A DNA stretch of 64,000 nt from an uncultured Acidobacteriaceae bacterium (GCA_963732255.1 CAVSYV010000008.1:42649-106648); one strand, 5' to 3'. Shown: positions 17,610 through 49,215, counted from the first letter of the stretch. The notes: a model not told the origin generated them from the letters alone. Numbers and translations are program-made.

Positions 17610-17615
17610 GAGCGG

Positions 17616-33554: not shown

Positions 33555-33607
33555 CTGCGAGAGGAGGATCCAAAGATTCGGGCAGGACTGCGGAGGAAAT
33601 AGCAGGC

Positions 33608-34351
33608 TTAACGGAGAGGCAGCGCGGCCGAGATGGCGTGGAGGCCGCATTCGGTTTTTGCAAATCCAGGCCAGCGGCCGTCGCGCGGGTTTTCTCCCGC
33701 TGTAACCGCGCGCGTGCACTGCACGCAGCCGAGGCTGGGATAGTTTCGATCAAGCAGAGGGTTGTAGGGCAGCTTCCATTCGCGAACGTAGTGCCACACG
33801 CGTTCACGTGGCCAGTCGGCCAGAGGATTGATTTTCACGATGCGGAATCTTGAGTCCCAGGCGACTTTGCGAATGCAAGCGCGCTCGGGAGTCTGATCCC
33901 TGCGGATCGATGTTACCCAGGCGCGCAGATTCCGCAGGTATTTTTCCAAGGGCTCAACTTTGCGCAGCCGGCAGCACAAATCGGGATCCCGGTTCCACAG
34001 TTGTTCTCCGTGCGATTGGGCTTGTGCTTCCGGAGACAGGTCGGGCAGGACGCGTTCTACGGAAATGTGATAGCGGGATTCAATCTGCTCGATCAGGCGA
34101 TAGGTTTCTGGAAAAAGAAAAGAAGTATCCAGTACAAAGACGTGAGGTCGCGGCTGAACCCGCGCCGCCATATCAATCAGCGCAATGCCTTCCAGTCCGA
34201 ACGCTGAGCCGATAGCGACTGCCTCCGGATACTGGCGATAAGCCCAGCGCAGAACTCTCCGGGGCGACCATTCCGCGCCGTCCATCTCGCCATCGAGAAC
34301 TGACGGAGTTTCTGATGATTCGGCTGGCTTGGTTTCCGCCGGTTCGTTCAC
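33608..34351 (-). CDS. cysH: Assimilatory adenylyl-sulfate (APS)/PAPS reductase, Fe-S type
   Basis: C-terminal catalytic ECGLH. CC pair in DLCCRLRKVEPL plus CxxC in SLGCVQCT, the Cys set of 4Fe-4S APS reductases. Start is uncertain: the ORF is open to 34438, with candidates at 34351 (GTG) and 34285 (ATG). Confidence 0.8.
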   Translation of the reverse strand: MNEPAETKPAESSETPSVLDGEMDGAEWSPRRVLRWAYRQYPEAVAIGSAFGLEGIALIDMAARVQPRPHVFVLDTSFLFPETYRLIEQIESRYHISVERVLPDLSPEAQAQSHGEQLWNRDPDLCCRLRKVEPLEKYLRNLRAWVTSIRRDQTPERACIRKVAWDSRFRIVKINPLADWPRERVWHYVREWKLPYNPLLDRNYPSLGCVQCTRAVTAGENPRDGRWPGFAKTECGLHAISAALPLR

Positions 34352-36329
34352 GTGCTCTCCTCTTGAGATTGCCGCCACAGGCCGAATGCGAGTCAGGGGC
34401 CGGAAGAAGCGCCCATCGCTGCCGCCAAAGACTTGCAACTTCTGGTGCGATCCGAACTGGCGAAATCCGTTGCGCAGCGGGCGAGGCGAAGCCGATCCTC
34501 ACGCTGGCCAGGCAGCGGAAGACTTCCTCGGCATTTCCCTGCCACGCCGACGATTCCAGAGCTCGCAGTCTGGTGGTGAACTCGTGTGTGTCGAGAGGAA
34601 GCGTCCTGATGGTTCGGATTTTCTCCAGGCGAGTGGGACGCAGGGTTTCGCTACGGTCGTCAACCAGAACTTCGCTGAGTTTTTCCCCCAGCTTCATCCC
34701 CGTAATTTCGATGCGAATGTCTCCCGTGGGGGAGAGCCCCGAAAGCTCAATCAGATCCTGCGCCAGATTCCGGATCAAAACCGGTTCTCCCATATCGAGG
34801 ACGAATACCTCGCGCGAGTCGGCCAGCGTTCCGGCATGAATAAGAAGACAGACGGCTTCCGGAATGGTCATCAGAAATCTCTCCGCCTGGGCGTGGGTGA
34901 CTGTAACCGGACCGCCGTCGCGAATTTGCCGTTGAAAGATAGGCACCACGCTGCCGCGGCTTCCCAGTACGTTGCCAAACCGAACGCAGCAAGAGTGGGC
35001 GAGATGACGATCGGACTGCGCCTGCACGATCATTTCGCAGATGCGCTTGGTCGCGCCCATGATCGAGGTGGGATTCACCGCCTTGTCGGTGGAGACCTGA
35101 ATAAACCTTTCCACTCCGAACTTCACCGACTGCTCCACCAGGTTGCGGGTGCCGGTAACGTTGTTGGCCACCGCTTCGCAGGGATTCAGTTCCATCAAGT
35201 GCAGGTGTTTGTGGGCGGCGGCATGGAAAACAACTTGCGGATGGAAACGCTCGAATATGCCGCGCAGGCGCTCCGGGAAACGCAGATCGGCGACGACTGG
35301 GGTGGAGTTGCCCGCACTGCGGCTCTGCATCTGCACGTAGACGTCGTTCAGGCCGTTCTCGTCTTTGTCGAGCAGGAGAAGATGACTGGGTTCGAACTTG
35401 AGCAGTTGTACCGCGAGCTCGGACCCAATGGAGCCTCCCGCGCCCGTGACCAGAATGCTTTTGCCCCGGTAGGCACAGCTGAGTTCGGCTTGACTGGCGC
35501 TGCCTTCGACCGAATTGCGGCCCAGCAAGTCTTTCATTTCCACATCGCGAAAATTGGCGACGCTGACTTTGCCATGCAAAATCTCCTCCAGCGTAGGCAC
35601 AATTTTTACCGGCACGCCCAGCAGTTCGCAGCTGGCCCAGATGCGGCGCAGGATTTCGCGCGAGGGGTGGGCGATGCAGACAATCACCTGACGCACGCCG
35701 AACTTCTGAATGCTATCCGCCAACGATGAAATCAGGCCCAGGACCGGAAAACCGCAGACGATGGATCCGCTCTTTTGCGGGTTGTCGTCGAGAAATCCAA
35801 CCGGATGCAAATCCACCTGGCTGCGGATTTCGTTTGCGGTTTGCGCTCCGATTTTACCCGCCCCAATGAGCAAAACCGGACTTGGAGATCTGCCGTTCAG
35901 CACCCGCGAGGTTATTCCTTCGTGCAGCAGCCGCCGAGTCGCGCGCGCCGCTAAGGCGCCAAAAAGCGACAAGAGATAGGCCGCCACCCAAACACCCACG
36001 CGCACCCGCAGTAGTGGGATCAGGCGGGGAGCGGCGCATTCCAGCAGCAGGACTGCCGCGGGAAACAAGGCGAAGTTGCGCGCCAGAGTGATCGCGTCGC
36101 GCAGGCTCACGTACCTCCAGATCATGCGGTAGGTGCGCAACCAGATATTGGCGAGGACTTGTCCGGCCATCACGGCGGGCAACAGCATCCACTCCTGAAA
36201 GGATGATGCGGGGGAAATATGGCCCTCGAAGACGACCTCGTAGGCAAGGTAAAAACCGAGGCCGGCGATCAAACCATCGATAATTTTCTGGTTGAGAGCC
36301 GAATACGGATCAAAGCGGAATTTGGCCAT
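34173..36329 (-). CDS. Membrane-bound NDP-sugar 4,6-dehydratase (CapD/PglF/WbpM family)
   Basis: Four N-terminal TM helices and two Rossmann motifs (VLLIGAGKIGAQ and ILVTGAGGSIGSEL). Dehydratase core STDKAVNPTSIMGATKRICE. The last ~100 codons look non-native and overlap cysH (see findings). Confidence 0.85.
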   Translation of the reverse strand: MAKFRFDPYSALNQKIIDGLIAGLGFYLAYEVVFEGHISPASSFQEWMLLPAVMAGQVLANIWLRTYRMIWRYVSLRDAITLARNFALFPAAVLLLECAAPRLIPLLRVRVGVWVAAYLLSLFGALAARATRRLLHEGITSRVLNGRSPSPVLLIGAGKIGAQTANEIRSQVDLHPVGFLDDNPQKSGSIVCGFPVLGLISSLADSIQKFGVRQVIVCIAHPSREILRRIWASCELLGVPVKIVPTLEEILHGKVSVANFRDVEMKDLLGRNSVEGSASQAELSCAYRGKSILVTGAGGSIGSELAVQLLKFEPSHLLLLDKDENGLNDVYVQMQSRSAGNSTPVVADLRFPERLRGIFERFHPQVVFHAAAHKHLHLMELNPCEAVANNVTGTRNLVEQSVKFGVERFIQVSTDKAVNPTSIMGATKRICEMIVQAQSDRHLAHSCCVRFGNVLGSRGSVVPIFQRQIRDGGPVTVTHAQAERFLMTIPEAVCLLIHAGTLADSREVFVLDMGEPVLIRNLAQDLIELSGLSPTGDIRIEITGMKLGEKLSEVLVDDRSETLRPTRLEKIRTIRTLPLDTHEFTTRLRALESSAWQGNAEEVFRCLASVRIGFASPAAQRISPVRIAPEVASLWRQRWALLPAPDSHSACGGNLKRRARERTGGNQASRIIRNSVSSRWRDGRRGMVAPESSALGLSPVSGGSRYRLSVRTGRHCAD

Positions 36330-36384
36330 GATTGGGTTGGGACTGCGTATTGGAGTGCCGCGAATGAAACGGAAACGGAAAACC

Positions 36385-37023
36385 TCAATCCTTTGCTGTC
36401 AGGCTGAGAACCGTGTTGAACAACACGCGCAGATCGGAGAAAAAGTTTCGCTGGCGTTGATAGTCCAGAGACAAGCTGAGCTTGTGCGGCAAGATCTCCG
36501 AAATGTAGTGCTGTTCCAATCTATCGGCAACCAATAGATTCTCTTCACACCGGTACGCCAGGCTGGCCGGATCGGTAATGCCCGGCGGCTCACCGAGCAA
36601 TAGCGCGTATTGCTCGCGGAACATGGTCACGTAGGGTTCGACCTCGGGCCGCACGCCCACCAGTTGCATATCGCCGGTCAAAACGTTCCACAGCTGGGGC
36701 AATTCGTCCAGTTTGTACCGCCTCAGGAATCGTCCCACTCCGGTAAGCCGGCGGTCGTTGGGCGCCGTCAGTAATCCGTTCTCATCGGCGTTCACCACCA
36801 TGCTGCGAAATTTCAATAGGCAAAAGGGGCGAAAGAGTTTTCCCAGGCGTGTCTGGGAGTAGAAGACCGGGCCACCGTCGTGCCATTTCACGAGCAACGC
36901 GACGGCCGATAGCAAAGGCAGCAGGAGCAACAGTCCCAGAGCGGCACAAACGAAGTTGAAGGCGCGGTTCATGGCAGAGTAGCGGCGGGCGCCGACGCCG
37001 CCGTCACGATCCGGCGCCGGCAT
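36385..37023 (-). CDS. Initiating polyprenyl-phosphate sugar-phosphate transferase (PglC/WbaP C-domain-type bacterial sugar transferase)
   Basis: PVFYSQTRLGK...FCLLKFRSM, DELPQLWNVLTGDMQLVGVRP. The alternative start at 36972 (MNRAFNFV) would remove the overlap with the upstream gene. Confidence 0.85.
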   Translation of the reverse strand: MPAPDRDGGVGARRYSAMNRAFNFVCAALGLLLLLPLLSAVALLVKWHDGGPVFYSQTRLGKLFRPFCLLKFRSMVVNADENGLLTAPNDRRLTGVGRFLRRYKLDELPQLWNVLTGDMQLVGVRPEVEPYVTMFREQYALLLGEPPGITDPASLAYRCEENLLVADRLEQHYISEILPHKLSLSLDYQRQRNFFSDLRVLFNTVLSLTAKD

Positions 37024-38233
37024 GCCTGCCTTGTTTCAGAAGCGCGTGTTTTCGCACCACGTCCGTCACGGCCTTGATGACATCTTCCACATCCTGCTCC
37101 TGCAGGCGCGGACAGCAGGGCAAGGACACGATTCGCTGGTATTGGGAATAAGCGACGGGAAAATCTTCGGGCGCGTATCCATATTTATCGCGGTAGTAGG
37201 AAAGCAGGTGGATGGGAATGAAGTGCACCGAAGTTCCGATGTTGCGGGCCTGCATTTCCGAGATGAAGCGGTCGCGCGAAATGGCCAGCCGCTCCAGTTG
37301 CAGACGGAGAACGTAGAGATGCCAGGCATGTCCTGCCCAATCGCGTTCCGTGGGCGTCTCCAGTTCGCCGTATTCCGCAAATGCCTGGTTGTATCGGGCG
37401 GCGATCTGGCGGCGTCGCGCATGAAAATCGGCCAGCTTCTTGAGTTGATGAAGTCCCAGAGCCGCCTGCATATCGGTCATGTTGTACTTGAAGCCGGGGC
37501 GGTCCACATCGTAGTGCCAGGAGCCTTCGCGGCCATAGCGCTTCCAGGCGTCGCGGCTCATGCCGTGCAGGCTCCAGAGGCGGGCGTCCTCTATTTGATC
37601 CGAGTTTCCCGTGAGCATTCCGCCTTCCGCCGTGGTCATGTTCTTTGTGGCATAGAAAGAAAAGCAGGTGAACACAGGCACGTCGGCGCGGGCGCCGAGC
37701 GATCCGATTTTCTGACTTTTATATTCCGCCGGCAGAGCGTGGGCGGCGTCTTCGATGACTGCGCATCCGTATTCGGAGGCGAGGGCCAGCAAGGCGTCCA
37801 TGTCGCATGCATGTCCGTAAAGGTGCACCGGAACAATGGCCTTGGCCCGCCGGCCGTTTTCCTTCTTGAGGCGGGCCAGCGTTTCCCGAACTTTGGCGGG
37901 GTCGAGATTCAGGGTTCCCGGTTCCACATCCACCAGGATCGGCCGCGCCCCGGTGTGTTCGACGACGTGCACGGTGGAGCAGAAGGTCATGGGCGTGGTA
38001 ATCACGGCGTCGCCCGGGCCGATGCCCAATGTGGCCAGAGCGACATGCAGCGCGGCCGTACAGGAATTCACGGCCAAAGCCGATGGGCTGTTCACAGCGG
38101 CGGCAAACTCCTGCTCAAAACGTTTCACCTTGGGGCCGGTGGTGATCCAGTCCGAGCGCAGGGTATCGGCGACTTCGGCGATTTCTTCTTCGCCGATCGA
38201 AGGAGGAGAAAATGCTAAGAAGGTTTTTCGCAC
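37004..38233 (-). CDS. DegT/DnrJ/EryC1-family PLP-dependent sugar aminotransferase (PglE-like)
   Basis: SPPSIGEEEIAEVADTLRSDWITTGPKV, CTAALHVAL, FSFYATKNMTTAEGG (PLP Lys context). Confidence 0.9.
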   Translation of the reverse strand: MRKTFLAFSPPSIGEEEIAEVADTLRSDWITTGPKVKRFEQEFAAAVNSPSALAVNSCTAALHVALATLGIGPGDAVITTPMTFCSTVHVVEHTGARPILVDVEPGTLNLDPAKVRETLARLKKENGRRAKAIVPVHLYGHACDMDALLALASEYGCAVIEDAAHALPAEYKSQKIGSLGARADVPVFTCFSFYATKNMTTAEGGMLTGNSDQIEDARLWSLHGMSRDAWKRYGREGSWHYDVDRPGFKYNMTDMQAALGLHQLKKLADFHARRRQIAARYNQAFAEYGELETPTERDWAGHAWHLYVLRLQLERLAISRDRFISEMQARNIGTSVHFIPIHLLSYYRDKYGYAPEDFPVAYSQYQRIVSLPCCPRLQEQDVEDVIKAVTDVVRKHALLKQGRHAGAGS

Positions 38234-38267
38234 GGGAGTCTGTTAACGGTCGGTGTTGTTGCGCGGG

Positions 38268-39197
38268 TTATCGCCCCGCCGCGATGCCGGGGCCGGGTTG
38301 CGCGGGCGGCGTCCTGCCTGCCAGCACCAGAAATCGCGGGCCCAGGAATATGCGTTGCGCCGAGAGCCGCCAAAGCAGCCGCGAAAAGAAGCCGTATATC
38401 CGCCACAGAAAATCCCGCAGCGCCGTCTCCTGCCGGTTGCCGGGCAGAGGACGAATGGCCTGCACGCAAAAGCCGCACTGTTCCAGCAGGCGCGAAATCG
38501 ATCCTGGCGTGTAATAAAAAAGATGGTCGCTGCTTTCGAGCAGAGGCATCCGGCTTCGATGAAGCAGCTTGCCGAGGACTCCACCGCGTCGCCAGAGGCG
38601 CGTCCTGGCCCAGGGAAGCTCGATGGCGAGAAAGCCGTTCGGCTTCAAAATGCGGGCGAACTCCGCCAACTCCTGCGCCGGACGTGGAAAGTAATAAAAG
38701 GCGTCGAGGACGGTGACGACATCGAAGGATTGCTCCTGGAACGTTGCGCTGCGCGTGTCGCCCACATGGACCTCAATGCCGGCGCGTCGGGCTTCTCCGG
38801 CCGCCGCGCGAGTTGGCTCGACGCCGTGGGCCTGCCATCCGGATCGATTGGCGAAGGGCGCAAGGAACAGTCCGGTGGCGCAACCCACATCGAGAATGCG
38901 TCCCTGGTTTTGCCGCGATTGAATGTAGCCAGCAACTTCCGCCAGCACTGGCCGGCGATTGGCCTCGAACTGGCGGTGGAACTGGGCGGCGCTGGGAACC
39001 ACGCCTCCATTTTCGAAATGGCGGGCTAAAGCTTCGGGCAGCGGCTGTGGCTGAACAAAGAAAACGCCGCAGTGAAGACATTGCTCAAGGCGCTTGCCGC
39101 GGTATTCGGACTCAGTCATCAGTTCCGCACTGCCGCACAGAAGGCAAACCCTGGATTCAAAATCTCCCCGGTCGGGACTGGTTGCCACGGTAATCAT
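38268..39197 (-). CDS. Class I SAM-dependent methyltransferase with an N-terminal zinc ribbon
   Basis: CLLCGS...CLHCGVFF zinc ribbon, and SAM motif I ILDVGCATGLF. Start set at the ATG at 39197 (MITVATSP). Confidence 0.72.
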   Translation of the reverse strand: MITVATSPDRGDFESRVCLLCGSAELMTESEYRGKRLEQCLHCGVFFVQPQPLPEALARHFENGGVVPSAAQFHRQFEANRRPVLAEVAGYIQSRQNQGRILDVGCATGLFLAPFANRSGWQAHGVEPTRAAAGEARRAGIEVHVGDTRSATFQEQSFDVVTVLDAFYYFPRPAQELAEFARILKPNGFLAIELPWARTRLWRRGGVLGKLLHRSRMPLLESSDHLFYYTPGSISRLLEQCGFCVQAIRPLPGNRQETALRDFLWRIYGFFSRLLWRLSAQRIFLGPRFLVLAGRTPPAQPGPGIAAGR

Positions 39198-39293
39198 CTC
39201 AACGCGCTCCGCGAGTTGACTTCCGAAATTTCGACTTCCCGGAGCCAGAAGTTGCCAGTGCAAGCTAGCACGGGACCTTACTAGAACGGGACC

Positions 39294-40821: not shown

Positions 40822-40888
40822 GGTTTGGTTAGGATCGTCCCCTGTCTTTCGCCCGCAAGCAAGTCCCCCCACAGGTGGAGTTAACGAA

Positions 40889-43025: not shown

Positions 43026-44020
43026 CGCCAGGGCCGCGATTCGAACGGTTCCTCATTCCTGGACGGAGCGAACTGCGGCTCACTGCACGGGGAAATATCC
43101 TGTGGCGGGAGGAACTCATAAGAGAAGGGTAAACGAGCGGGGGCCAGCCACCAGGCCCGAGGCCAGAGGTAGCCATAACGCACGGCCAGGGGGAACGTGA
43201 CAGCGGAGACCGCGAACTTGGCGATGGGGGGCAGTACGGAATTGCGTTTTTCCACGACTACCGCCCCTGAACCGTCGAAAACGTCGGGATTGCCAGCCAG
43301 CATGTGCTGCGTTCTTACCGTGGCCCGGTTGCCGCGCAAGAAAGAGCAATCGGCGGGATGGCCGAGGATGGTGGCGGCGATGGCCTCGACAAACCGTCTG
43401 GGATTCTCAGCCAGATCCTCGTAGCGCAGCCTCCAATGTTGCGCTGGCTGCGAAGCCATCATCAGTTCGGTGAAGGGGTTGATGAAATTCCAACTGAGGG
43501 CGGCGCGCCAGGCCGGGACCTGGAACAAATAGCTTTTCCGCCGGCGCCGGCTGGCAGCGACTCCGTGAGGCGAGCGGATCAGGTGCACTACCGAGAGGCG
43601 CACGCCCGGGGCGCGGCTCAATGCGTAGGCCCGGGCCGGGTTCTTGGAGCAGTCGATGATCGCCTCCGCACCGGTCTTTTGCGCGATCGAGCGGTACAGA
43701 TCGCGCATCGAGAAGATCAGCTTCCGAGCCTCACATCGGTCGCAGTAATTCGTAAAAGCCAGCCGGCAAAAGTGCCGCTTGCGAAAAAAGTCCTGCCCGA
43801 ATGCCTGCAGCTGAGGATCAGCCGGAATGTCTTTCCAGAAAGAACAGTCGCGCACCGGCACTCCGCAGCCGCAGGGAATCGGCGGACACTTGCCGAAGTA
43901 GTGAAACGCAGCCTGCCCCACGTTGACGAAGCCCTCCACTTCTCCCAGGAGCCGGGCCAACATGGTGCTGCCCGAGCGGCCCGAACCGGCAATGTACAGC
44001 ACTGGAATGGGTTGATTCAT
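43022..44020 (-). CDS. PAPS-dependent sulfotransferase-family protein
   Basis: 5-prime-phosphosulfate binding loop at the N-terminus (YIAGSGRSGSTMLARLL) and a 3-prime-phosphate binding segment (VVHLIRSPHGVAAS). Confidence 0.72.
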   Translation of the reverse strand: MNQPIPVLYIAGSGRSGSTMLARLLGEVEGFVNVGQAAFHYFGKCPPIPCGCGVPVRDCSFWKDIPADPQLQAFGQDFFRKRHFCRLAFTNYCDRCEARKLIFSMRDLYRSIAQKTGAEAIIDCSKNPARAYALSRAPGVRLSVVHLIRSPHGVAASRRRRKSYLFQVPAWRAALSWNFINPFTELMMASQPAQHWRLRYEDLAENPRRFVEAIAATILGHPADCSFLRGNRATVRTQHMLAGNPDVFDGSGAVVVEKRNSVLPPIAKFAVSAVTFPLAVRYGYLWPRAWWLAPARLPFSYEFLPPQDISPCSEPQFAPSRNEEPFESRPWR

Positions 44021-44039
44021 GATTCGAAGGCCGGCAGCG

Positions 44040-45305
44040 TTAGGCGCAATATAGGAGAAAAATCGCCAGCCACAGGCAGGAAACGCAGAACCTCCCGCCT
44101 AGGCCTTCCACTGTGGCTTCCGCCAGCCGGTAGCCCAACACCACCAGCCAGACCACCGCGCTGGCCTTACTGAGGGAGCGGGCGCGCAGGCAGTTGGACA
44201 GCTTCTGCAAGCCCACGCCGTACAAGACAGAACCAAACCAAATTCCCATCATGCCGAAGTTGGCATAGAACTCGGCCATCAACGGCACCTGCGCCGTGGC
44301 CTTGTAGTAGCCGTTGCTGTAGGAGATAAAGCCGTTGAATCCCCCCCACCACTTCTCTGCGATAAAGTTTCGCTTGATGGGGGAAGGGATCAGGGACAGG
44401 GCATCGTGCACGTAGCTCATTCCGTACTCGTAGTCGCGGATGTGCGGATATTTTTCCAGAATCAGTTGCACGGTTCCCGCGCCCGAGGTCATCCTTTGGC
44501 CGACCATGCCCAGCAGTTGCAGATTGTCCTGATCGTCGGTTTCGAGGGAAGAGCTGCCAAACTTCACCACAAAGAGCCCGGCGACCAGCAGAACCAGAAT
44601 CGTTCCAGCCAGCACGATCTGTTTCCCGGTGGCCGGACGGAAGTATTGCCGGGCCATGACGACCATCAGCGGGCAGGAGAGCGCAACCCACAGACCCCCG
44701 GAGGCCAGTTCGAAGGCAAAATCGAAGGCTACCAGCGCGACCGCCCATTTCCCGAACCGGACCTCGCCACAGTAAAACTTGGCCAGAAACAGCAGCGCCA
44801 GAATTGGGATGATGTGATGCACTCCCTGCAGGAGGTAGGTGGATCCGAACGTGGCATCGGCCTTGAGTTCCTGCACCACCGCGTAGTGTTCCGGGTCGCC
44901 GAGGGCGCGAAAGGAATTCAGCGACTCCATGAAGGCCAGGTTTTTTATTGCAAACACCGCAGTGGAAACAAGCGCCACCGACAGGAGCGCGGCAAACTTG
45001 CGCCCGTGCAGGTCCGGCTTCAGCGAAGCCTGGGGCATTTTGCCGCTGCCGGTAAGCAGCGCCCCGGCGGCGAATCCGGCGATGGCCAATAGGATCGCGG
45101 ACAGGGTCCCCGGGCTGATGAAATAGGACTCGCCGCCAAAACTGTGGGGAGCGTCGTAGGCATACAACGAGACTGCGGGAACGACGACATAGAGCGTCAG
45201 ATAGGCCAGGTGAACGGCGGAGGGCGAGAAAATGAAGCCGCCCGGGTTCATCTTCCAAAGAAGGAGGGTGTAGGCAAGTAGCGCCCAAATCAGGAGCGTA
45301 ACCAT
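44040..45305 (-). CDS. wzy: Wzy-like oligosaccharide repeat-unit polymerase (multi-TM)
   Basis: 421 aa with about 10-12 TM helices, no cytoplasmic domain, and a position between wzx and the transferases. The call rests on topology and context, not on a conserved motif. Confidence 0.6.
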   Translation of the reverse strand: MVTLLIWALLAYTLLLWKMNPGGFIFSPSAVHLAYLTLYVVVPAVSLYAYDAPHSFGGESYFISPGTLSAILLAIAGFAAGALLTGSGKMPQASLKPDLHGRKFAALLSVALVSTAVFAIKNLAFMESLNSFRALGDPEHYAVVQELKADATFGSTYLLQGVHHIIPILALLFLAKFYCGEVRFGKWAVALVAFDFAFELASGGLWVALSCPLMVVMARQYFRPATGKQIVLAGTILVLLVAGLFVVKFGSSSLETDDQDNLQLLGMVGQRMTSGAGTVQLILEKYPHIRDYEYGMSYVHDALSLIPSPIKRNFIAEKWWGGFNGFISYSNGYYKATAQVPLMAEFYANFGMMGIWFGSVLYGVGLQKLSNCLRARSLSKASAVVWLVVLGYRLAEATVEGLGGRFCVSCLWLAIFLLYCA

Positions 45306-45395
45306 TCTTCGTTTCCCCTTTCTTTCGGGAGAGAACCGGGCCGGCTTTGCTTTGCCGCAGGTCGACCGGGCTGACTCCGGCCTGGGCCGGGTCTT

Positions 45396-46934
45396 TCACG
45401 CTGCTCCTCCCGCAGCCGGGAAAAAAGTGGCAGCCATGGCCAGCACCGTGCGCCGCTCTTTGCCGTCCAAGACATAGGCCCAGGCAGTGCGGGCAAAGGC
45501 CAGCGCCAGACACGACGCCAGCAGGCCTCGCGTCAAAAATGATGCAACCCCCATCCATACCGGCACCAGCAGCAGTCCAAAGCCGAGAACCACCGCGGCG
45601 CTCTTCCGTAAATCTTTCGCCATCCCGTGGGAGATGGAGAGGAGCCGAAGCGAGAGCACCGCCAGCATCAGCAGCGCCGCGTCGGCACAAATGCGAATGG
45701 TCCACGCCAGCGCTGCCCCCCTGATTCCCATGTGTTTGACCAGCACCCACAGCAGCAAGACATAGAACGGCAATTCCACGAGATGGAATTTTGCCGTCAG
45801 GTCCGGCCGGCCCAGCCCTTGCAGCAGGCCGAAGGGCACGTAGGCCAGGGAATTGATCAGTGCCCCTGCGGCCAGGATTTGCAGCACAGCCGCGCCCCGG
45901 GCGGCAAATTCCGCGCCCAGCCAGAGGCGGAGAATTTCATGGGCAAAAAGAATGATCAGCAGGGTCATGGGGCCGATGATCAAAAGAATCGCCTTCAGGG
46001 ATCGCGCGCACAGTTCCTGCAGCCGGGCCGGGGAACCCGCCGCATCGAGAGAGCTGAACGCCGGGAAGATTGTAGTGCTCAGGCTTCCGGGAACCATCGC
46101 CAGCCGGTTGATGGCCTCCGACGGCGCGGTGTAGTAGCCGACTGCGACCATCGAGATCATCGATCCCAGAGCCAGCCGATCCAGATAGGAGAATAAAGGT
46201 CCCACGAAGTTGGAGACCGTAATCCAGCCGCCATAGGACAGCAAGGGCCGGAACAGGGCGAAATCGACAGAGCAGTTTTTTCTGAGGGCGGGGTAGAACT
46301 TAAAACATAAAACAAGATACGCCAGTCCCGAGCCCAAGCGGGTGAAAGCCAGAAGGCCGACCATCAGCGGCAGTCGGGCGCGGAACAGCACCGCCAGCGC
46401 AGGCAGGAGAAACAGACAGGCATTGGCCGGGACCTTCACATAATTGACCACATCGAAGTGTTGGCCGGCCTCGAGCACGCCGCGCATGGAGTTGGAACCG
46501 AGAACCAGGGGCAGCGCGGCGGCGAGAATGTAGAAACTCAACTCGGTTTCCCGGACGAAGACGGGCGTGATCTTCAGCGCGTGATGCACCAGCACTGGAG
46601 TGATCAGGGCAGCCACCGCGGCGCCGACCGCTCCCAGCAGGAACTGCGACCACAAGGAAGTCCATACCAGTCCGGGCAGGCGATGGGTTTCGCCGCTTCC
46701 CAGGCAGCCCGCGACAAACTTTGTGGTGGCGCGGCCCAGTCCCAGATCGAACAAGCCAAAGTATCCCAGAAAAATCCATGCCAGCGATAAGATGCCGAAG
46801 CGCTCGGGTCCAAGGCCGCGCAACAGATACGGAATCGCGGGCACGGCGACCACCAGGGATAACCCCTGGCTGAAGAGATTCAGGGTCCAGTTTCTGGTCA
46901 AAAGCCGTGCGTTAATCGCGATGGCTGGGCGCAT
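45396..46934 (-). CDS. wzx: Wzx-type oligosaccharide flippase (MOP/PST family)
   Basis: 512 aa with about 14 TM helices. N-terminal pattern NLFSQGLSLVVAVPAIPYLLRGLGPERFGILSLAW is typical of polysaccharide-biosynthesis (Polysacc_synt) flippases. Confidence 0.8.
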   Translation of the reverse strand: MRPAIAINARLLTRNWTLNLFSQGLSLVVAVPAIPYLLRGLGPERFGILSLAWIFLGYFGLFDLGLGRATTKFVAGCLGSGETHRLPGLVWTSLWSQFLLGAVGAAVAALITPVLVHHALKITPVFVRETELSFYILAAALPLVLGSNSMRGVLEAGQHFDVVNYVKVPANACLFLLPALAVLFRARLPLMVGLLAFTRLGSGLAYLVLCFKFYPALRKNCSVDFALFRPLLSYGGWITVSNFVGPLFSYLDRLALGSMISMVAVGYYTAPSEAINRLAMVPGSLSTTIFPAFSSLDAAGSPARLQELCARSLKAILLIIGPMTLLIILFAHEILRLWLGAEFAARGAAVLQILAAGALINSLAYVPFGLLQGLGRPDLTAKFHLVELPFYVLLLWVLVKHMGIRGAALAWTIRICADAALLMLAVLSLRLLSISHGMAKDLRKSAAVVLGFGLLLVPVWMGVASFLTRGLLASCLALAFARTAWAYVLDGKERRTVLAMAATFFPAAGGAA

Positions 46935-46942
46935 GGGTGCCT

Positions 46943-47932
46943 TTATGCCTTGATCTCAGGGAGTGACGGCGAAGCGGCTGCCGGGGACAAAGATTCGTCC
47001 CATACCGCAAGGCCAAAGCGAAGCATGCCCTCGGCCTTGGCCAGCACGCGGTTGGCGGGATTCCATGCCCGCAAATATTTCGCCGCCCGGTGGGTGTAAT
47101 GGTTGACCAGGGGCGACAGGCAGGGATGAAACGCAATCCGCTGGCGGACCGTTCTTGCCTCATAGCCCATGCGGAACTTGAATTCGTCGACGCTGGGCGG
47201 AGCATCGAGCGATTGCATGCCATAGAAGATGCCGCGAATATGCGGCCTGCGAATCAGCGTTTGCGTGACCACGAAGCTGAGCGCGTTATTGACGTGTTCG
47301 CGGAGGTAGTCACTGTGGCATTGCTGGTAGAGCATGTAGGCCCAGCCATCCATGGGAAAGGTGACCAGTGTTGCCGCCAGCCGTCCCCGCACTTCGGCCG
47401 CCCAGACCTCGAATCCCTCCAGCCCCGATGCGGCGGCATAACGGCTCTGCCAGCCGCGCTTGGTCTCCTGGACCCGGCGCTGCTGCCGGGCCAAGGTGTC
47501 GAGCCGAAGATCCCATCCCTGCTCCAGATAACGGGCAAATGAAATCGGCGCCACCCGGCAATTCCGCAGACCGCGGCGCACATTTTTTCGCGCCCACGCG
47601 CCCAGCGTCTCGAGGTCATAATCGTTTCCGGTGCAGACCACGTGGTAGCAGGATTCCCGGTTACGTGGCAGGGAGCTGTCTCTGTGTCTGTCTCTGTCTC
47701 CGTTCCGCCCATCGCCGTTCTGGCCCCTGCCGGTGGGCATCGAATAACGGAGCGCGAGAGCGCCATGGCGCAGCATCAGCTCTCGAAGTTCTGCGCGACC
47801 GGGTTCGATCAGCCAGTGATAGGGAAATGCCTGGAAGACTCCCCAGCCCTGGCTGTGCCAGTACGAACTCTCGGTCCGAATCACACGCTGGCCCTGACGG
47901 CGCAGCCATTCAGAGTAAATCTCGGCGGTCAT
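46943..47932 (-). CDS. FemAB/CelD-like GNAT-fold acyltransferase (PEP-CTERM-locus associated type), with a low-complexity insert
   Basis: 329 aa. Pattern WAAEVRGRLAATLVTFPMDGWAYMLYQQCHSDYLREHVNNAL resembles BioF2/FemAB-like acetyltransferases of EPS loci. This is a moderate-confidence family call made from memory. Confidence 0.5.
   Translation of the reverse strand: MTAEIYSEWLRRQGQRVIRTESSYWHSQGWGVFQAFPYHWLIEPGRAELRELMLRHGALALRYSMPTGRGQNGDGRNGDRDRHRDSSLPRNRESCYHVVCTGNDYDLETLGAWARKNVRRGLRNCRVAPISFARYLEQGWDLRLDTLARQQRRVQETKRGWQSRYAAASGLEGFEVWAAEVRGRLAATLVTFPMDGWAYMLYQQCHSDYLREHVNNALSFVVTQTLIRRPHIRGIFYGMQSLDAPPSVDEFKFRMGYEARTVRQRIAFHPCLSPLVNHYTHRAAKYLRAWNPANRVLAKAEGMLRFGLAVWDESLSPAAASPSLPEIKA
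47677..47700 (-). repeat. Imperfect (GAGACA)4 hexanucleotide repeat inside the FemAB-like gene
   Basis: Minus strand reads GAGACA GAGACA GACACA GAGACA and encodes DRDRHRD within the insert GRGQNGDGRNGDRDRHRDSS. Confidence 0.8.
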
Positions 47933-48018
47933 TGTTAATCTCGCTGGGTTGATCTCGCCCGGTTAATCTCGCTTGGCTAATCTGGCTTGATCCCGCGCGA
48001 CCGAGAATGCGGCCGGCG

Positions 48019-49215
48019 TCAGGCCCCGGCCCACATCCGCTTGCGCGCTTCCATTTCCTGTTCGCTGCCGTTCCACTTGACTTTGGGCAAAACGATCTCG
48101 GGCTTGATGCGGTGCTTGTATTTGAGGATCGTCTCTAGCATGCTGCCGACCAGTTCGTCCGAGAGAAAATGCGGCTCGAGGCCCAGGTCCAGCAGCTTGG
48201 AGTGCGCGGGATTGAAGTGGTGTTCTTCCTGCTCGACCCGCGGATTTGCGACGTGGCTGACCTCGGCATTCAGGCCCAGATTGCGCGCCTGGGTGGCGAC
48301 CAACTGCGCCAGCTCCAGTACCGTAAAGGTTTCGGTGAACTGATTGAAGACGCGGTACTCGCCCCGCCCGGGCGGATTGAGGATCGCCAGCTCCACGCAG
48401 CGCACGGTATCGCGAATATTGAGAAAGCCGCGCTGCTGACCGCCTTTGCCATAGACGGTCAGCGGGATTGCCGCCACGGCTTGCACGCAGAAGCGGTTGA
48501 TGGCGGTGCCGAAAACGTCGTCATAGTGAAAGCTGGTGGCCAGCCGCTCATCGAGTCCGGTCTCGTCGGTTTCAAGGCCGTAGACCACGCCCTGGTGCAG
48601 GTCGGTGGCGGAAAGATTCCAGGCGCGGCAGCTGAAGCGGATGTTGTGGCTGTCGTGCACCTTGGAAAGGTGGTAGAAAGACCCGGGCTGGCAGGGAAAA
48701 GGCAAAATGTCCTTGCGCCCCTTGTGCTCGATTTCGATAAAGCCCTCTTCGATGTCGATATTCGGAGTGCCGTACTCGCCCATGGTTCCCAGCTTCACCA
48801 GATGGCAGTCGAGTCCCAATTTTTTCATCGCCCACAGCACATTCAGCGTTCCACTAACGTTATTAACCTGGGTGAACAAGCAGCGGTTGTGATCGATCAT
48901 CGAGTAGGGCGCGGAGGGCTGTTCGCCATAATGCACGATGGCGGCGGGAGAGAAGGCTGCCAGTGCCCCTTCGACCACGCCATAATTGCGCAGATCGCCG
49001 ACAAAGAGTTCGAGCCTGGGGCCATGGATCTCATTCCAGGCTTGGACCCGGTCCTGCAGCGTGCGGATGGGAATCAGTGGTTCCACGTTGAGTTCGAGTT
49101 CCCAGCGGCGCTTGGCGAAGTTGTCCATGACCGCGACCTCGTGCCCCTGGCGCGATAGATACATGGCCGTGGCCCAGCCGAGGTAACCGTCGCCACCCAA
49201 AATCAGCACTTTCAT
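48019..49215 (-). CDS. sqdB: UDP-sulfoquinovose synthase (SQD1/SqdB/Agl3 family SDR)
   Basis: Near-collinear match to remembered plant SQD1 blocks: GGDGYLGWATAMYLS, HYGEQPSAPYSMID, HLVKLGTMGEYGTPNIDIEEGFIEI, SFYHLSKVHDSHNI, ATDLHQGVVYG, FGTAINRFCVQA, LTVYGKGGQQRGFLNIRDTV. Confidence 0.9.
   Translation of the reverse strand: MKVLILGGDGYLGWATAMYLSRQGHEVAVMDNFAKRRWELELNVEPLIPIRTLQDRVQAWNEIHGPRLELFVGDLRNYGVVEGALAAFSPAAIVHYGEQPSAPYSMIDHNRCLFTQVNNVSGTLNVLWAMKKLGLDCHLVKLGTMGEYGTPNIDIEEGFIEIEHKGRKDILPFPCQPGSFYHLSKVHDSHNIRFSCRAWNLSATDLHQGVVYGLETDETGLDERLATSFHYDDVFGTAINRFCVQAVAAIPLTVYGKGGQQRGFLNIRDTVRCVELAILNPPGRGEYRVFNQFTETFTVLELAQLVATQARNLGLNAEVSHVANPRVEQEEHHFNPAHSKLLDLGLEPHFLSDELVGSMLETILKYKHRIKPEIVLPKVKWNGSEQEMEARKRMWAGA

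What the first reader, a model, noticed from the sequence alone, without database searches (positions are those of the whole stretch)
33608..49215. Sulfur triad in one EPS operon: UDP-sulfoquinovose synthase, sulfotransferase and a terminal APS reductase
The same minus-strand operon encodes three sulfur-handling enzymes.
- An SQD1/SqdB-type UDP-sulfoquinovose synthase (48019-49215), with very strong motif collinearity to plant SQD1.
- A PAPS-type sulfotransferase (43022-44020).
- As its last gene, an Fe-S APS/PAPS reductase CysH (33608-34351).

Established biochemistry: SQD1 condenses UDP-glucose with sulfite. CysH is the enzyme that produces sulfite from APS/PAPS. Sulfotransferases consume PAPS.

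No sqdX/SQD2-type lipid glycosyltransferase is visible next to sqdB. Instead, sqdB sits among wzz, wzx, wzy and GT2 genes.

Inference: the locus makes an exopolysaccharide carrying sulfoquinovose (a C-S sulfonate) and/or O-sulfate esters, and carries its own sulfite-supply gene. Sulfoquinovose in a bacterial Wzy-dependent polysaccharide, rather than in SQDG lipid or the archaeal N-glycan, would be unusual.
Basis: partly seen in the sequence, partly recalled or inferred. Interest (0 to 1): 0.72.

Follow-up and report, generated by a model that had tools for sequence, protein, structure and literature searches.

The report
Sulfoquinovose polysaccharide operon with own sulfite supply
A soil acidobacterium carries a long capsule or slime-polysaccharide operon that also encodes the enzyme making the sulfonated sugar sulfoquinovose, a sulfate-adding enzyme and a dedicated sulfite-producing enzyme. 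This predicts a bacterial surface polymer containing a sugar so far known only from photosynthetic membrane lipids and archaeal protein glycans.

Summary
All three genes are at the stated coordinates, on the minus strand of one tightly packed 24-kb gene string.

- **SqdB (48019-49215):** 60% identical and ungapped to Arabidopsis SQD1, with the catalytic residues kept.
- **Sulfotransferase (43022-44020):** a weak but motif-bearing Sulfotransfer_3 member.
- **CysH (33608-34351):** an Fe-S APS-reductase-type CysH, and the last gene of the string.

- In several distinct Acidobacteriota loci, cysH directly follows the same PglF-like gene at the cluster end, although the downstream neighbours differ.
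- These cluster-linked CysH proteins form a clade (NJ bootstrap 98/100), separate from the sir-siroheme-cysH assimilation type.
- sqdB is present in every such cluster where the upstream DNA could be checked.
- No GT4/sqdX gene occurs in the window.
- One membrane GT2 (40889-42022) is the only glycosyltransferase besides the PglC-like initiating transferase in two minimal sqdB clusters. It is the best candidate sulfoquinovosyltransferase.
- The sulfotransferase is accessory: it recurs in two other lineages, is replaced by a GNAT in one, and is absent from others.

Not shown: the polymer chemistry, co-transcription, and whether the genome also has a housekeeping cysH. No report of sulfoquinovose in a bacterial polysaccharide was found. 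I judge it a new variant of a known kind, interest about 0.66.

The parts
58098..58838 (+). Divergently transcribed LuxR/GerE-type regulator at the head of the locus
   Evidence: Pfam GerE 54.6 bits. A gene with the same Pfam families (GerE/Sigma70_r4_2) sits in the same position and orientation in L001-004, L046 and L131.
57409..57789 (-). 126-aa ORF of unknown function, first gene of the string
   Evidence: No Pfam hit. A 126-aa ORF lies in the same position before the NusG-like gene in L001, L046 and L131; sequence homology was not checked.
56732..57316 (-). NusG-like protein, a candidate operon-specific antiterminator
   Evidence: Pfam NusG N-terminal domain, 78.8 bits. It is conserved at the head of the cluster in L001-004 (77% identity), L009, L046 and L131. 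The antiterminator role is inferred.
53194..56697 (-). Outer-membrane polysaccharide export protein (Wza/OPX) with multiple SLBB domains
   Evidence: Pfam Poly_export, SLBB (5 copies) and SLBB_2.
50853..53180 (-). PAP2 phosphatase fused to the Wzi capsule-assembly domain
   Evidence: Pfam Caps_assemb_Wzi 303.5 bits and PAP2 57 bits. The same fusion occurs in L001-004, L006 and L046.
49261..50658 (-). Wzz/PCP-type co-polymerase
   Evidence: Weak, sub-threshold Pfam hits: GNVR 26.8 bits (cut-off 27.7) and Wzz 21.2 bits (cut-off 25.5). One C-terminal transmembrane segment.
48019..49215 (-). SqdB, UDP-sulfoquinovose synthase (UDP-glucose + sulfite -> UDP-sulfoquinovose)
   Evidence: E 1e-154 and 60% ungapped identity to SQD1 1qrr, with T145/Y182/H183/K186 equivalents conserved. 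NF041015 is matched full length at 473.5 bits, on a par with SQD1's 484.7.
46943..47932 (-). Fem/MprF-like tandem-GNAT protein with no Pfam family; predicted aminoacyl- or acyl-transferase acting on the 4-amino sugar
   Evidence: No Pfam or NCBIfam hit. 1973 homologues, many listed with the same longest-contig length as a SqdB homologue, a proxy for shared contigs. AF2 model pLDDT 88.5. Foldseek top hits are Sba18/Sbb17, FemX and the MprF C-terminal domain, E 1e-9 to 1e-8, TM about 0.5. The substrate is inferred.
45396..46934 (-). Wzx/MOP flippase
   Evidence: Pfam Polysacc_synt 77 bits, Polysacc_synt_3 and MatE. Multiple transmembrane segments.
44040..45305 (-). Wzy repeat-unit polymerase
   Evidence: TIGR04370 (oligosaccharide repeat unit polymerase) 44.1 bits against cut-off 40. 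About 10 transmembrane segments.
43022..44020 (-). PAPS-type sulfotransferase, an accessory decorating enzyme
   Evidence: Sulfotransfer_3 29.4 bits against 27. 5'-PSB and 3'-PB motifs present. Weak match to CurM/OLS sulfotransferases. Orthologues in the same slot in L040/041 (71%) and L127/128 (64%). Replaced by a GNAT in L001-004.
42012..43025 (-). Soluble GT2 glycosyltransferase (GT2a)
   Evidence: Pfam Glycos_transf_2 70.8 bits. No transmembrane segment. Absent from the minimal clusters L005 and L043.
40889..42022 (-). Membrane GT2 (GT2b), the candidate sulfoquinovosyltransferase acting on the undecaprenyl-PP-linked sugar
   Evidence: Pfam Glycos_transf_2 87.6 bits and Glyco_transf_21 23 bits. 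One N-terminal and several C-terminal transmembrane helices. The orthologue profile's best PDB hit is the membrane GT2 PcManGT 6yv7, E 2e-28. It is the only GT besides PglC in L005 and L043/044, and it abuts sqdB in L005, L008, L009 and L011. Donor specificity is inferred.
39949..40872 (-). Polysaccharide deacetylase (XrtA-system type, with DUF3473)
   Evidence: Pfam Polysacc_deac_1 and DUF3473. TIGR03006 258.2 bits against cut-off 276.2.
39294..39962 (-). SAM-dependent methyltransferase 1
   Evidence: Pfam Methyltransf_25/11. ATG at 39962 preceded by AAAGGAGA.
38268..39263 (-). SAM-dependent methyltransferase 2, conserved in all related clusters
   Evidence: Pfam Methyltransf_23 78.6 bits. 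Orthologues in L006, L040 and L042-L045.
37004..38233 (-). DegT/PglE-type sugar 4-aminotransferase
   Evidence: Pfam DegT_DnrJ_EryC1 406.7 bits.
36385..37023 (-). Small PglC-type phosphoglycosyl transferase (initiating enzyme)
   Evidence: Pfam Bac_transf 169.6 bits. One N-terminal membrane helix.
34173..36329 (-). Membrane PglF-like UDP-HexNAc 4,6-dehydratase, with a frameshifted and extended C-terminal tail
   Evidence: Pfam Polysacc_synt_2 335 bits, ending at residue 574 of 718. Relatives are 641-645 aa. Two 1-nt insertions relative to L040 and L006 put the ancestral TGA (34395-34393) out of frame.
33608..34351 (-). CysH, Fe-S APS-reductase type; proposed dedicated sulfite supply for SqdB; last gene of the string
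   Evidence: PRK02090 245.7 bits and TIGR00434 231.4 bits. Best solved relatives 7lhr and 2goy, with CC, CxxC and ECGLH present. Conserved terminal position in 13 related loci, and a separate clade with bootstrap 98/100.
33536..33555 (-). Terminator-like hairpin about 50 nt after the cysH stop codon
   Evidence: 7-bp stem GCGATCT/AGATCGC followed by GCATGATTTTTT. This is a consensus scan only, and the number of such sites in the region is not above shuffled expectation.

Best explanation
This is a Wzx/Wzy-dependent surface-polysaccharide (capsule or EPS) operon of an acidobacterium (Terriglobia). Its repeat unit is predicted to contain sulfoquinovose.

**Shown**
- The gene families.
- Gene order and tight same-strand packing from a NusG-like gene (56732-57316) to cysH.
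- Conservation of this order in relatives.

**Inferred pathway**
1. The PglF-like dehydratase and the DegT aminotransferase convert UDP-HexNAc into a UDP-4-amino-4,6-dideoxy-HexNAc.
2. The PglC-like transferase puts that sugar on undecaprenyl phosphate.
3. CysH reduces APS to sulfite, and SqdB adds the sulfite to UDP-glucose to give UDP-sulfoquinovose.
4. The membrane GT2 (40889-42022) transfers sulfoquinovose onto the lipid-linked amino sugar. The soluble GT2 (42012-43025) adds a further sugar.
5. Decorating enzymes modify the unit: the Fem-like tandem-GNAT protein, two methyltransferases, a deacetylase and, in this strain, a PAPS sulfotransferase that adds O-sulfate.
6. Wzx flips the unit, Wzy and Wzz polymerise it, and Wza and Wzi export and anchor it.

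The product would be a strongly anionic polymer carrying a C-S sulfonate and, here, also sulfate esters.
For: **Families**
- SqdB is 60% identical to SQD1 without gaps, and the catalytic residues are kept (residues named in PMC4388408).

**Packing**
- All 19 genes from 57316 to 33608 lie on one strand.
- Gaps are at most 194 nt and several start/stop codons overlap.
- A 41-nt ancestral spacer with a Shine-Dalgarno sequence precedes cysH.
- A hairpin followed by a T-run comes after cysH.

**Synteny**
- sqdB lies between wzz and the Fem-like gene and wzx in L001-004, L006 and L046.
- cysH directly follows the PglF-like gene in L006, L040/041, L042, L043/044, L045, L047-049, L051, L055/056 and L127-129.
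- The genes downstream of cysH differ: HtrA, a cytochrome c/GSDH protein, an HD-GYP protein, or GT87 and GalT.

**CysH census and tree**
- Of 73 CysH loci with upstream sequence, 13 have the PglF-like gene upstream, 60 have sir or siroheme genes upstream, and none has anything else.
- The PglF-linked CysH are monophyletic, with NJ bootstrap 98/100.
- The sir-cobA-cysH operon also exists in a MAG labelled Ca. Sulfotelmatobacter (L130). Other MAGs with that label carry sqdB clusters (L007).

**Minimal clusters**
- A sqdB-GT2b-DegT-PglC-PglF module also occurs in a Nitrospirae MAG (L011).

**GT2b and related clusters**
- The closest solved relative of GT2b is a membrane GT2, the P. calidifontis mannosyltransferase (6yv7; PMC10569066).
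- A related cluster ends in cysD-cysN instead of cysH (L010). Sulfur-activation genes are therefore linked to this cluster type more than once.

**Sulfite dependence**
- In vitro, Agl3 accumulates the UDP-glucose-5,6-ene intermediate at low sulfite (PMC4388408). This gives a rationale for a dedicated sulfite supply.
Against: - No chemistry exists: nothing shows that the polymer contains sulfur or sulfoquinovose.
- No glycosyltransferase here has known sulfoquinovosyl specificity.
- GT2b orthologues also occur without sqdB within 10 kb (L010, L012). GT2b also has faint GT21 (lipid glycosyltransferase) similarity.
- Clusters of the more distant sqdB clade (L005, L007, L009, L011) lack cysH. A dedicated reductase is therefore not required for the pathway.
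- Whether this genome also carries a sir-linked cysH could not be tested. The clade separation could partly reflect organismal phylogeny rather than paralogy.
- The terminator and the absence of promoters come from consensus scans that are not calibrated for Acidobacteriota.
Confidence: 0.6

Rival explanations
1. UDP-sulfoquinovose made by SqdB goes into a membrane sulfolipid, either SQDG or another sulfoquinovosyl lipid. The transfer is done by the transmembrane GT2b or by a glycosyltransferase encoded elsewhere. sqdB would sit in the polysaccharide operon only for co-regulation.
For: - SQDG is the only established bacterial fate of UDP-sulfoquinovose (literature).
- GT2b has transmembrane helices and a weak Glyco_transf_21 hit of 23 bits. 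GT21 includes lipid glycosyltransferases (general knowledge).
- In L011 a GT4 gene lies directly upstream of the sqdB-like gene.
Against: - No GT4/sqdX, sqdC or sqdD-like gene occurs in the window.
- sqdB is embedded between wzz and wzx in all close relatives.
- GT2b is invariably next to the DegT-PglC-PglF module, and it is the only GT available to extend the PglC product in L005 and L043.
- Its closest solved relative is the membrane GT2 PcManGT (6yv7), reported, to my recollection, as an archaeal N-glycan-pathway enzyme.
Confidence: 0.13
2. The sulfoquinovose-containing glycan is real, but it is an LPS O-antigen or a protein-linked glycan rather than a free capsule or EPS.
For: - The PglF/PglE/PglC module is typical of bacterial N- and O-glycosylation and of O-antigen initiation (general knowledge).
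- The polymerase orthologues in relatives hit Pfam Wzy_C, the O-antigen ligase/polymerase family.
Against: - Wza/OPX, a Wzi domain and Wzz are encoded at the head of the same string. Wzi is characteristic of anchored group-1-type capsules (general knowledge).
- No PglB, PglL or WaaL-type gene beyond the single Wzy is present in the string.
Confidence: 0.12
3. cysH is simply the housekeeping assimilatory APS reductase of these organisms. It happens to lie at the end of the polysaccharide locus and is not functionally coupled to SqdB or the sulfotransferase.
For: - The protein is an ordinary Fe-S APS reductase by sequence.
- No second cysH could be looked for in this genome.
- Clusters of the distant sqdB clade lack cysH.
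- In L131 cysH is retained next to a truncated PglF gene, although the middle of the cluster is missing.
Against: - The PglF-cysH junction is conserved in 13 related loci while the downstream genes differ.
- Only a 41-nt spacer with a Shine-Dalgarno sequence separates the two genes ancestrally.
- The cluster-linked CysH form their own clade with bootstrap 98/100, apart from the 60 sir- or siroheme-linked copies.
- A sir-cobA-cysH operon exists in a MAG with the same candidate-genus label.
- A sister cluster ends in cysDN at the same position.
Confidence: 0.12
4. The SqdB homologue has a diverged activity. For example, it may stop at UDP-4-keto-glucose-5,6-ene or at a 6-deoxy sugar, or it may use another nucleophile. 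No sulfonate sugar would then be made.
For: - SQD1 and Agl3 release UDP-glucose-5,6-ene when sulfite is lacking (PMC4388408).
- The NCBIfam equivalog cut-off is not reached.
Against: - The protein is 60% identical to SQD1 without gaps, and T145/Y182/H183/K186 are kept.
- SQD1 itself scores below the same cut-off.
- A conserved linked sulfite-producing enzyme argues that sulfite is the co-substrate.
Confidence: 0.05

Closest known systems
SQD1/SqdB-dependent sulfolipid (SQDG) pathway of plants, cyanobacteria and some proteobacteria (sqdB with sqdX, or sqdA-D)
   Same: The first committed enzyme is the same: UDP-glucose plus sulfite gives UDP-sulfoquinovose. It is 60% identical to SQD1 and has the same catalytic residues. 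In plants, APS reductase is also the source of the sulfite (general knowledge).
   Different: No SqdX/SQD2 (GT4) or SqdD-type lipid glycosyltransferase is present. The gene is embedded in a Wzx/Wzy/Wza polysaccharide operon, so the predicted acceptor is an undecaprenyl-PP-linked sugar rather than diacylglycerol. A reductase gene is physically linked to it.
Archaeal N-glycan sulfoquinovose pathway (Agl3 of Sulfolobus acidocaldarius)
   Same: UDP-sulfoquinovose is used to build a polyprenol-linked glycan for the cell surface (PMC4388408). The nearest solved relative of the candidate transferase GT2b is the crenarchaeal membrane GT2 PcManGT (PMC10569066).
   Different: This is a bacterial system that polymerises repeat units with Wzy/Wzz and exports them through Wza, with no oligosaccharyltransferase. 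SqdB is of the plant/bacterial type: 60% identical to SQD1, whereas Agl3 is reported as about 40% identical to SQD1.
Sulfated bacterial exopolysaccharide loci that carry sulfotransferases (for example the cyanobacterial synechan xss cluster; cited from memory)
   Same: A Wzx/Wzy-type cluster carries a PAPS-dependent sulfotransferase as a decorating enzyme.
   Different: Those polymers carry O-sulfate esters only. Here the conserved sulfur chemistry is a C-S sulfonate sugar plus an APS reductase, and the sulfotransferase is only an optional extra.
Bacillosamine-initiated glycan pathways (Campylobacter/Neisseria PglF-PglE-PglD-PglC)
   Same: A membrane PglF-like dehydratase, a DegT/PglE aminotransferase and a small PglC phosphoglycosyl transferase occur in the same order.
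   Different: There is no PglD-type acetyltransferase. Instead a Fem/MprF-like tandem-GNAT protein and methyltransferases are present. The product is polymerised and exported rather than transferred to protein.
Assimilatory sulfate reduction operon sir-cysG/cobA-cysH
   Same: CysH belongs to the same Fe-S APS reductase family.
   Different: Here cysH is detached from sulfite reductase and siroheme synthesis and attached to a polysaccharide operon. It belongs to a separate clade.

Membership tests
UDP-sulfoquinovose synthase (SQD1/SqdB/Agl3) | Full-length collinear homology to a biochemically characterised member | tested here: met
   Residues 2-382 align to residues 3-383 of SQD1 1qrr without gaps, E 1.2e-154.
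UDP-sulfoquinovose synthase (SQD1/SqdB/Agl3) | SDR catalytic triad Thr145/Tyr182/Lys186 plus His183 of SQD1 | tested here: met
   T144, Y181, H182 and K185 are at the aligned positions. The triad is named in PMC4388408; the role of His183 is cited from memory.
UDP-sulfoquinovose synthase (SQD1/SqdB/Agl3) | Score above the curated NCBIfam NF041015 equivalog cut-off (575 bits) | tested here: inconclusive
   The window protein scores 473.5 bits, below the cut-off. Arabidopsis SQD1 itself scores 484.7, so the cut-off excludes the reference enzyme.
UDP-sulfoquinovose synthase (SQD1/SqdB/Agl3) | Enzymatic formation of UDP-sulfoquinovose from UDP-glucose and sulfite | not testable with these tools
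   Requires an in vitro assay.
Fe-S APS reductase (CysH, APS-specific type) | PAPS_reduct fold and scores above the CysH model cut-offs | tested here: met
   PF01507 151 bits. PRK02090 245.7 bits against 154, and TIGR00434 231.4 against 165.1.
Fe-S APS reductase (CysH, APS-specific type) | Cys-Cys pair plus CxxC iron-sulfur ligands and a C-terminal ECGLH catalytic motif | tested here: met
   DLCCRLRK, GCVQCT and TECGLHA are present and align to 7lhr and 2goy.
Fe-S APS reductase (CysH, APS-specific type) | Score above the TIGR02055 APS_reductase subfamily cut-off (235.3) | tested here: not met
   212.9 bits. APS versus PAPS preference is therefore inferred from the Fe-S motifs only.
PAPS-dependent sulfotransferase (Pfam Sulfotransfer_3) | Pfam gathering score and the 5'-PSB / 3'-PB PAPS-binding motifs | tested here: met
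   29.4 bits against 27, a narrow pass. Motifs GSGRSGSTML and HLIRSPHGV are present. Only a weak match to the CurM/OLS sulfotransferase structures, E 0.03-0.3.
Wzx/Wzy-dependent polysaccharide assembly locus | Initiating phosphoglycosyl transferase, Wzx flippase, Wzy polymerase, PCP (Wzz) and OPX (Wza) encoded together | tested here: met
   Bac_transf, Polysacc_synt, TIGR04370, Poly_export/SLBB and Wzi are all matched above their cut-offs. The GNVR/Wzz hits for the PCP are below Pfam's gathering scores.
SQDG sulfolipid pathway (sqdB plus sqdX/SQD2 or sqdD) | A GT4 (SqdX/SQD2) or SqdD-type lipid sulfoquinovosyltransferase associated with sqdB | tested here: not met
   No GT4 or Glycos_transf_1 protein occurs among the ORFs scanned across the 64-kb window. 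The rest of the genome could not be examined.
Fem / aminoacyl-tRNA-dependent transferase (tandem GNAT) for ORF 46943-47932 | Tandem GNAT fold similar to FemX and the MprF C-terminal domain | tested here: met
   AF2 model pLDDT 88.5. Foldseek probability 1.00 and E 1e-9 to 1e-8 to Sba18, FemX and MprF, with TM about 0.5. No sequence-family hit.
Fem / aminoacyl-tRNA-dependent transferase (tandem GNAT) for ORF 46943-47932 | Use of aminoacyl-tRNA rather than acyl-CoA as donor | not testable with these tools
   Acetyl-CoA tandem GNATs (VipF, the clavulanate GNAT) appear among the same Foldseek hits.

The most novel reading that the evidence does not exclude
Soil Acidobacteriota make a previously unrecognised class of surface polysaccharide. 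Its minimal repeat is a disaccharide of sulfoquinovose and a modified 4-amino-4,6-dideoxy-HexNAc. It is built by a new membrane GT2 sulfoquinovosyltransferase that acts on undecaprenyl-PP-linked acceptors. It is fed by a dedicated APS-reductase paralogue that diverts activated sulfate to sulfite for SqdB. In some strains, including this one, the polymer is additionally O-sulfated. Non-photosynthetic soil bacteria would then be a substantial and overlooked source of sulfoquinovose for the soil sulfonate cycle.
Probability: 0.4. Interest if true: 0.82.

Novelty: new variant of a known kind. Interest (0 to 1): 0.66.

Why it matters
Sulfoquinovose is treated as a product of photosynthetic organisms, where it occurs in SQDG lipid, plus a few archaeal N-glycans. 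The literature on sulfoglycolysis and sulfoquinovosidases is framed around those sources.

If this operon does what its gene content predicts, it would change that picture in several ways.
- It would add a third kind of natural sulfoquinovose glycoconjugate: a bacterial Wzy-dependent polysaccharide.
- It would name a candidate for a new sulfoquinovosyltransferase family (GT2).
- It would provide an example of an assimilatory enzyme lineage (CysH) recruited as a pathway-specific sulfite generator.
- It would point to abundant soil Acidobacteriota as producers of sulfonated, and in some strains sulfated, polyanionic matrix. Hundreds of close homologues were found in soil and peat metagenomes.

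That has consequences for soil sulfur cycling, for metal binding and water retention by the matrix, and for identifying the natural substrates of beta-specific or anomer-nonspecific sulfoquinovosidases.

Tried and rejected
**Retrieving the window's own contig.** The exact SqdB protein (P0001) comes from a 185-kb NCBI/ENA contig, but it could not be fetched. The cluster look-up gave no names. The organism is therefore inferred from relatives: Ca. Acidoferrum, Angelobacter and Sulfotelmatobacter, all Acidobacteriota.

**ORF 46943-47932 as the missing sulfoquinovosyltransferase.** I tested this and rejected it. The protein has a Fem/MprF-like tandem-GNAT fold, not a glycosyltransferase fold.

**The 179-nt cysH overlap as a special coupling feature.** I rejected this too. 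It results from two single-base insertions in the tail of the PglF-like ORF relative to L040 and L006.

**The NF041015 cut-off as a membership test.** It proved uninformative, because SQD1 itself fails it.

**Promoter and terminator scans.** They gave nothing above shuffled expectation. Only the hairpin after cysH is mentioned, as weak evidence.

**Literature.** Ten full-text searches found no paper linking sulfoquinovose or sqdB to a bacterial polysaccharide, capsule or O-antigen. Two of them (42, 46) were poorly targeted. Subscription-only literature was not covered.

**A second cysH, or sqdX, elsewhere in the same genome.** This could not be tested.

**First phylogeny script.** It timed out and was re-run with a faster distance routine.

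**Structure prediction for GT2b.** I did not attempt it, because the homologue searches needed for its alignment were exhausted. A profile search against PDB sequences was used instead.

Full report
**1. What is in the window**

The minus strand between about 57.8 kb and 33.6 kb carries an uninterrupted string of same-strand ORFs. Pfam and NCBIfam scans identify them, in order:

- a 126-aa ORF (57409-57789)
- a NusG-like protein (56732-57316)
- a Wza/OPX exporter with several SLBB domains (53194-56697)
- a PAP2-Wzi fusion (50853-53180)
- a Wzz/PCP protein (49261-50658)
- SqdB (48019-49215)
- an unannotatable 329-aa protein (46943-47932)
- Wzx (45396-46934)
- Wzy (44040-45305)
- a Sulfotransfer_3 protein (43022-44020)
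- a soluble GT2 (42012-43025)
- a membrane GT2 (40889-42022)
- a DUF3473-type polysaccharide deacetylase (39949-40872)
- two methyltransferases (39294-39962 and 38268-39263)
- a DegT aminotransferase (37004-38233)
- a small PglC-type phosphoglycosyl transferase (36385-37023)
- a membrane PglF-like 4,6-dehydratase (34173-36329)
- CysH (33608-34351)

Gaps are at most 194 nt, and several genes overlap by a few bases. A LuxR-type regulator is transcribed divergently (58098-58838). Downstream of cysH there is a 305-nt gap holding a hairpin and T-run (33555-33536), then an HtrA protease and tricorn-like peptidases that are unrelated to the locus. The rest of the window holds no sulfate-activation genes and no GT4 glycosyltransferase.

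**2. The three sulfur enzymes**

*SqdB*
- It aligns to Arabidopsis SQD1 (1qrr) over 381 residues without a gap, at about 60% identity and E 1e-154.
- The SQD1 catalytic residues Thr145, Tyr182 and Lys186 (named in PMC4388408) and His183 correspond to T144, Y181, K185 and H182.
- It covers NCBIfam NF041015 end to end with 473.5 bits, below the curated 575.
- I calibrated this by scoring the SQD1 sequence itself, which gives 484.7. The cut-off therefore says nothing against membership.

*CysH*
- It exceeds the PRK02090 and TIGR00434 cut-offs.
- It is closest to the Fe-S APS reductases 7lhr and 2goy.
- It has the CC pair, the CxxC motif and the ECGLH motif.
- It falls short of the TIGR02055 APS-subfamily cut-off, so APS preference rests on the motifs alone.

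*Sulfotransferase*
- It is the weakest call: 29.4 bits against 27.
- It does have both PAPS-binding motifs, and orthologues occupy the same slot elsewhere (see section 4).

**3. Organism**

The window's own contig could not be retrieved. The closest genome representatives are Acidobacteriota MAGs: Ca. Acidoferrum, Ca. Angelobacter, Ca. Sulfotelmatobacter and Acidiferrales.

**4. Comparative genomics, the main evidence**

*sqdB in the polysaccharide operon.* Loci around SqdB homologues of 80-88% identity (L001-004, L046) and the Ca. Acidoferrum locus L006 share one order: regulator, 126-aa ORF, NusG, Wza, PAP2-Wzi, Wzz, SqdB, the 329-aa family, Wzx, Wzy, GT2s, methyltransferases, DegT, PglC, PglF.

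*cysH as the terminal gene.*
- Loci retrieved through CysH homologues show cysH immediately after the PglF-like gene in L006, L040/041, L042, L043/044, L045, L047-049, L051, L055/056 and L127-129.
- The gene after cysH differs between them: HtrA, a cytochrome c/GSDH protein, an HD-GYP protein, or GT87 and GalT.
- In every case where the upstream part is visible or the contig can be matched, sqdB is present. These are L006, L045/046, L042 through P0058/P0180, and L043 through P0071.

*Census of CysH contexts.* 87 CysH loci were classified by their upstream neighbour.

| Upstream neighbour | Loci |
|---|---|
| PglF-like gene | 13 |
| Sulfite reductase or siroheme (cobA) genes | 60 |
| Contig ends before any upstream sequence | 14 |
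| Anything else | 0 |

*Tree.* In a neighbour-joining tree the 14 PglF-linked CysH, including the window's, are monophyletic in 98 of 100 bootstraps.

*Both contexts in one candidate genus.* A MAG labelled Ca. Sulfotelmatobacter carries the sir-siroheme-cobA-cysH operon (L130). Other MAGs with the same label carry sqdB clusters (L007), or a collapsed cluster that retains cysH (L131). Both cysH contexts therefore occur in nominally the same group. The same genome could not be examined.

*A related ending.* A further cluster ends in cysD-cysN at the position of cysH (L010).

**5. The sulfotransferase is accessory**

- It is present, between wzy and the soluble GT2, in the window, in L040/041 (71% identity) and in L127/128.
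- In L127/128 its identity (64%) is similar to that of its neighbours, which suggests vertical inheritance with the cluster.
- A GNAT acetyltransferase occupies the slot in L001-004.
- Nothing occupies it in L042, L043, L045/046 and L051.
- The conserved sulfur pair is therefore SqdB plus CysH. The 'triad' is a recurrent but optional elaboration.

**6. Who transfers sulfoquinovose?**

*The 329-aa protein next to sqdB is not a glycosyltransferase.*
- It has no Pfam or NCBIfam hit and about 1973 homologues. Many of those homologues are listed with the same longest-contig length as a SqdB homologue, a proxy for shared contigs.
- A confident AF2 model (pLDDT 88.5) has a tandem-GNAT fold. It is most similar to aminoacyl-tRNA-dependent transferases: Sba18/Sbb17, FemX and the MprF C-terminal domain.
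- I infer that it acylates the 4-amino group made by DegT, taking the place of PglD.

*The membrane GT2 (40889-42022) is the best candidate.*
- Its orthologue is the only glycosyltransferase besides PglC in the minimal clusters L005 (Wzz-SqdB-GT2b-Wzx-Wzy-MT-DegT-PglC/PglF) and L043/044.
- It abuts a sqdB homologue in L005, L008, L009 and the Nitrospirae locus L011. Those homologues score 330-500 bits on NF041015.
- A profile of 17 orthologues finds as its best solved relative the membrane GT2 PcManGT (6yv7, E 2e-28). This is a Pyrobaculum mannosyltransferase with three transmembrane helices (PMC10569066). To my recollection it was described as an N-glycan-pathway enzyme.

*Caveats.* Orthologues of 50-56% identity occur without sqdB within 10 kb (L010, L012). 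The protein also has a faint GT21 hit. Its donor specificity is an inference.

**7. cysH and co-transcription**

- The listed 718-aa PglF-like ORF overlaps cysH by 179 nt. Relatives encode 641-645 aa.
- Alignment with L040 and L006 shows two 1-nt insertions near the 3' end in the window. These put the ancestral TGA (34395-34393) out of frame.
- The ancestral arrangement is a 41-nt spacer carrying AAGAGGAGAG before the cysH GTG.
- Together with the NusG-like gene at the head, this favours one long transcript ending at the hairpin after cysH. No transcript data exist, and the consensus scans are not significant.

**8. Mechanistic reading**

*Shown:* the families, the gene order and their conservation.

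*Inferred:*
1. APS is reduced by CysH to sulfite.
2. SqdB uses the sulfite with UDP-glucose to make UDP-sulfoquinovose.
3. GT2b adds sulfoquinovose to the Und-PP-linked 4-amino-4,6-dideoxy-HexNAc.
4. The unit is further glycosylated and decorated, including O-sulfation in this strain.
5. Wzx flips it, Wzy and Wzz polymerise it, and Wza and Wzi export it.

A dedicated sulfite source is plausible, because UDP-sulfoquinovose synthases stall at the 5,6-ene intermediate when sulfite is low (PMC4388408).

**9. Comparison with what is known, and novelty**

- Recent papers from the sulfoquinovose field list SQDG-type lipids and archaeal N-glycans as the natural sulfosugar conjugates.
- Ten full-text searches found no bacterial polysaccharide containing sulfoquinovose and no sqdB inside a wzx/wzy locus. 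The library does not cover most subscription journals.
- Every individual enzyme family here is known. What is new is the combination and the predicted product, so I classify it as a new variant of a known kind.

**10. Verdict**

It is correct on the families, on the absence of sqdX, and on the sqdB-cysH functional link, which is now backed by conserved synteny and phylogeny. It is overstated on the triad.
- Confidence that sulfoquinovose ends up in a Wzy-dependent glycan is about 0.6.
- Interest is 0.66.

Noticed in passing
window 34352-34440: The PglF-like ORF carries two single-base insertions near its 3' end relative to L040 and L006. The ancestral stop (34395-34393) is read through, which gives a 718-aa ORF with an Arg-rich out-of-frame tail overlapping cysH. 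This is either a sequencing or assembly error or a real C-terminal frameshift.
   Followed up: yes
window 46943-47932: A large protein family (about 1973 homologues, none with a Pfam domain) has a confidently predicted Fem/MprF-like tandem-GNAT fold. In Acidobacteriota it is almost always next to sqdB. It may aminoacylate an amino sugar, which would be an unusual polysaccharide modification.
   Followed up: partly
window 50853-53180: A PAP2 phosphatase domain is fused to the Wzi capsule-assembly domain in one 775-aa protein. The fusion is conserved in relatives (L001-004, L006, L046). No function was explored; undecaprenyl-PP recycling is one possibility.
   Followed up: no
L010 15021-17114: A related Acidobacteriaceae cluster (GT2b-DegT-PglC-PglF) ends in cysD and cysN (sulfate adenylyltransferase) at the position where the window has cysH. 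No sqdB lies within 10 kb of it.
   Followed up: partly
L131 1-6424: A Ca. Sulfotelmatobacter MAG has what looks like a collapsed cluster: LuxR, the 126-aa ORF and NusG, then a 384-aa unknown ORF, a truncated 465-aa PglF-like gene and cysH. The whole middle of the locus is missing.
   Followed up: no
window 6081-9060: UvrA appears split into two overlapping ORFs: 6081-7415 holds the UvrA interaction and DNA-binding domains, and 7156-9060 holds the ABC domains. This suggests a frameshift or sequencing error.
   Followed up: no
window 11595-12659: An IS110-family transposase (DEDD_Tnp_IS110 plus Transposase_20) lies about 20 kb from the polysaccharide locus.
   Followed up: no
window 15180-18890: Next to an FTR1/FtrD-like iron permease lies a MacB/FtsX-type permease that seems split (15180-16457 and 17091-17609). 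It is followed by an ABC ATPase fused to an iron-dependent-repressor C-terminal domain (17616-18890).
   Followed up: no
L011 7497-11119: In a Nitrospirae MAG, a more distant SqdB homologue (41% identity, 330 bits on NF041015) is flanked by a GT4 gene upstream and the GT2b orthologue downstream. They lie inside a Wzy-containing cluster. The sqdB-GT2b-DegT-PglC-PglF module therefore crosses phylum boundaries.
   Followed up: partly
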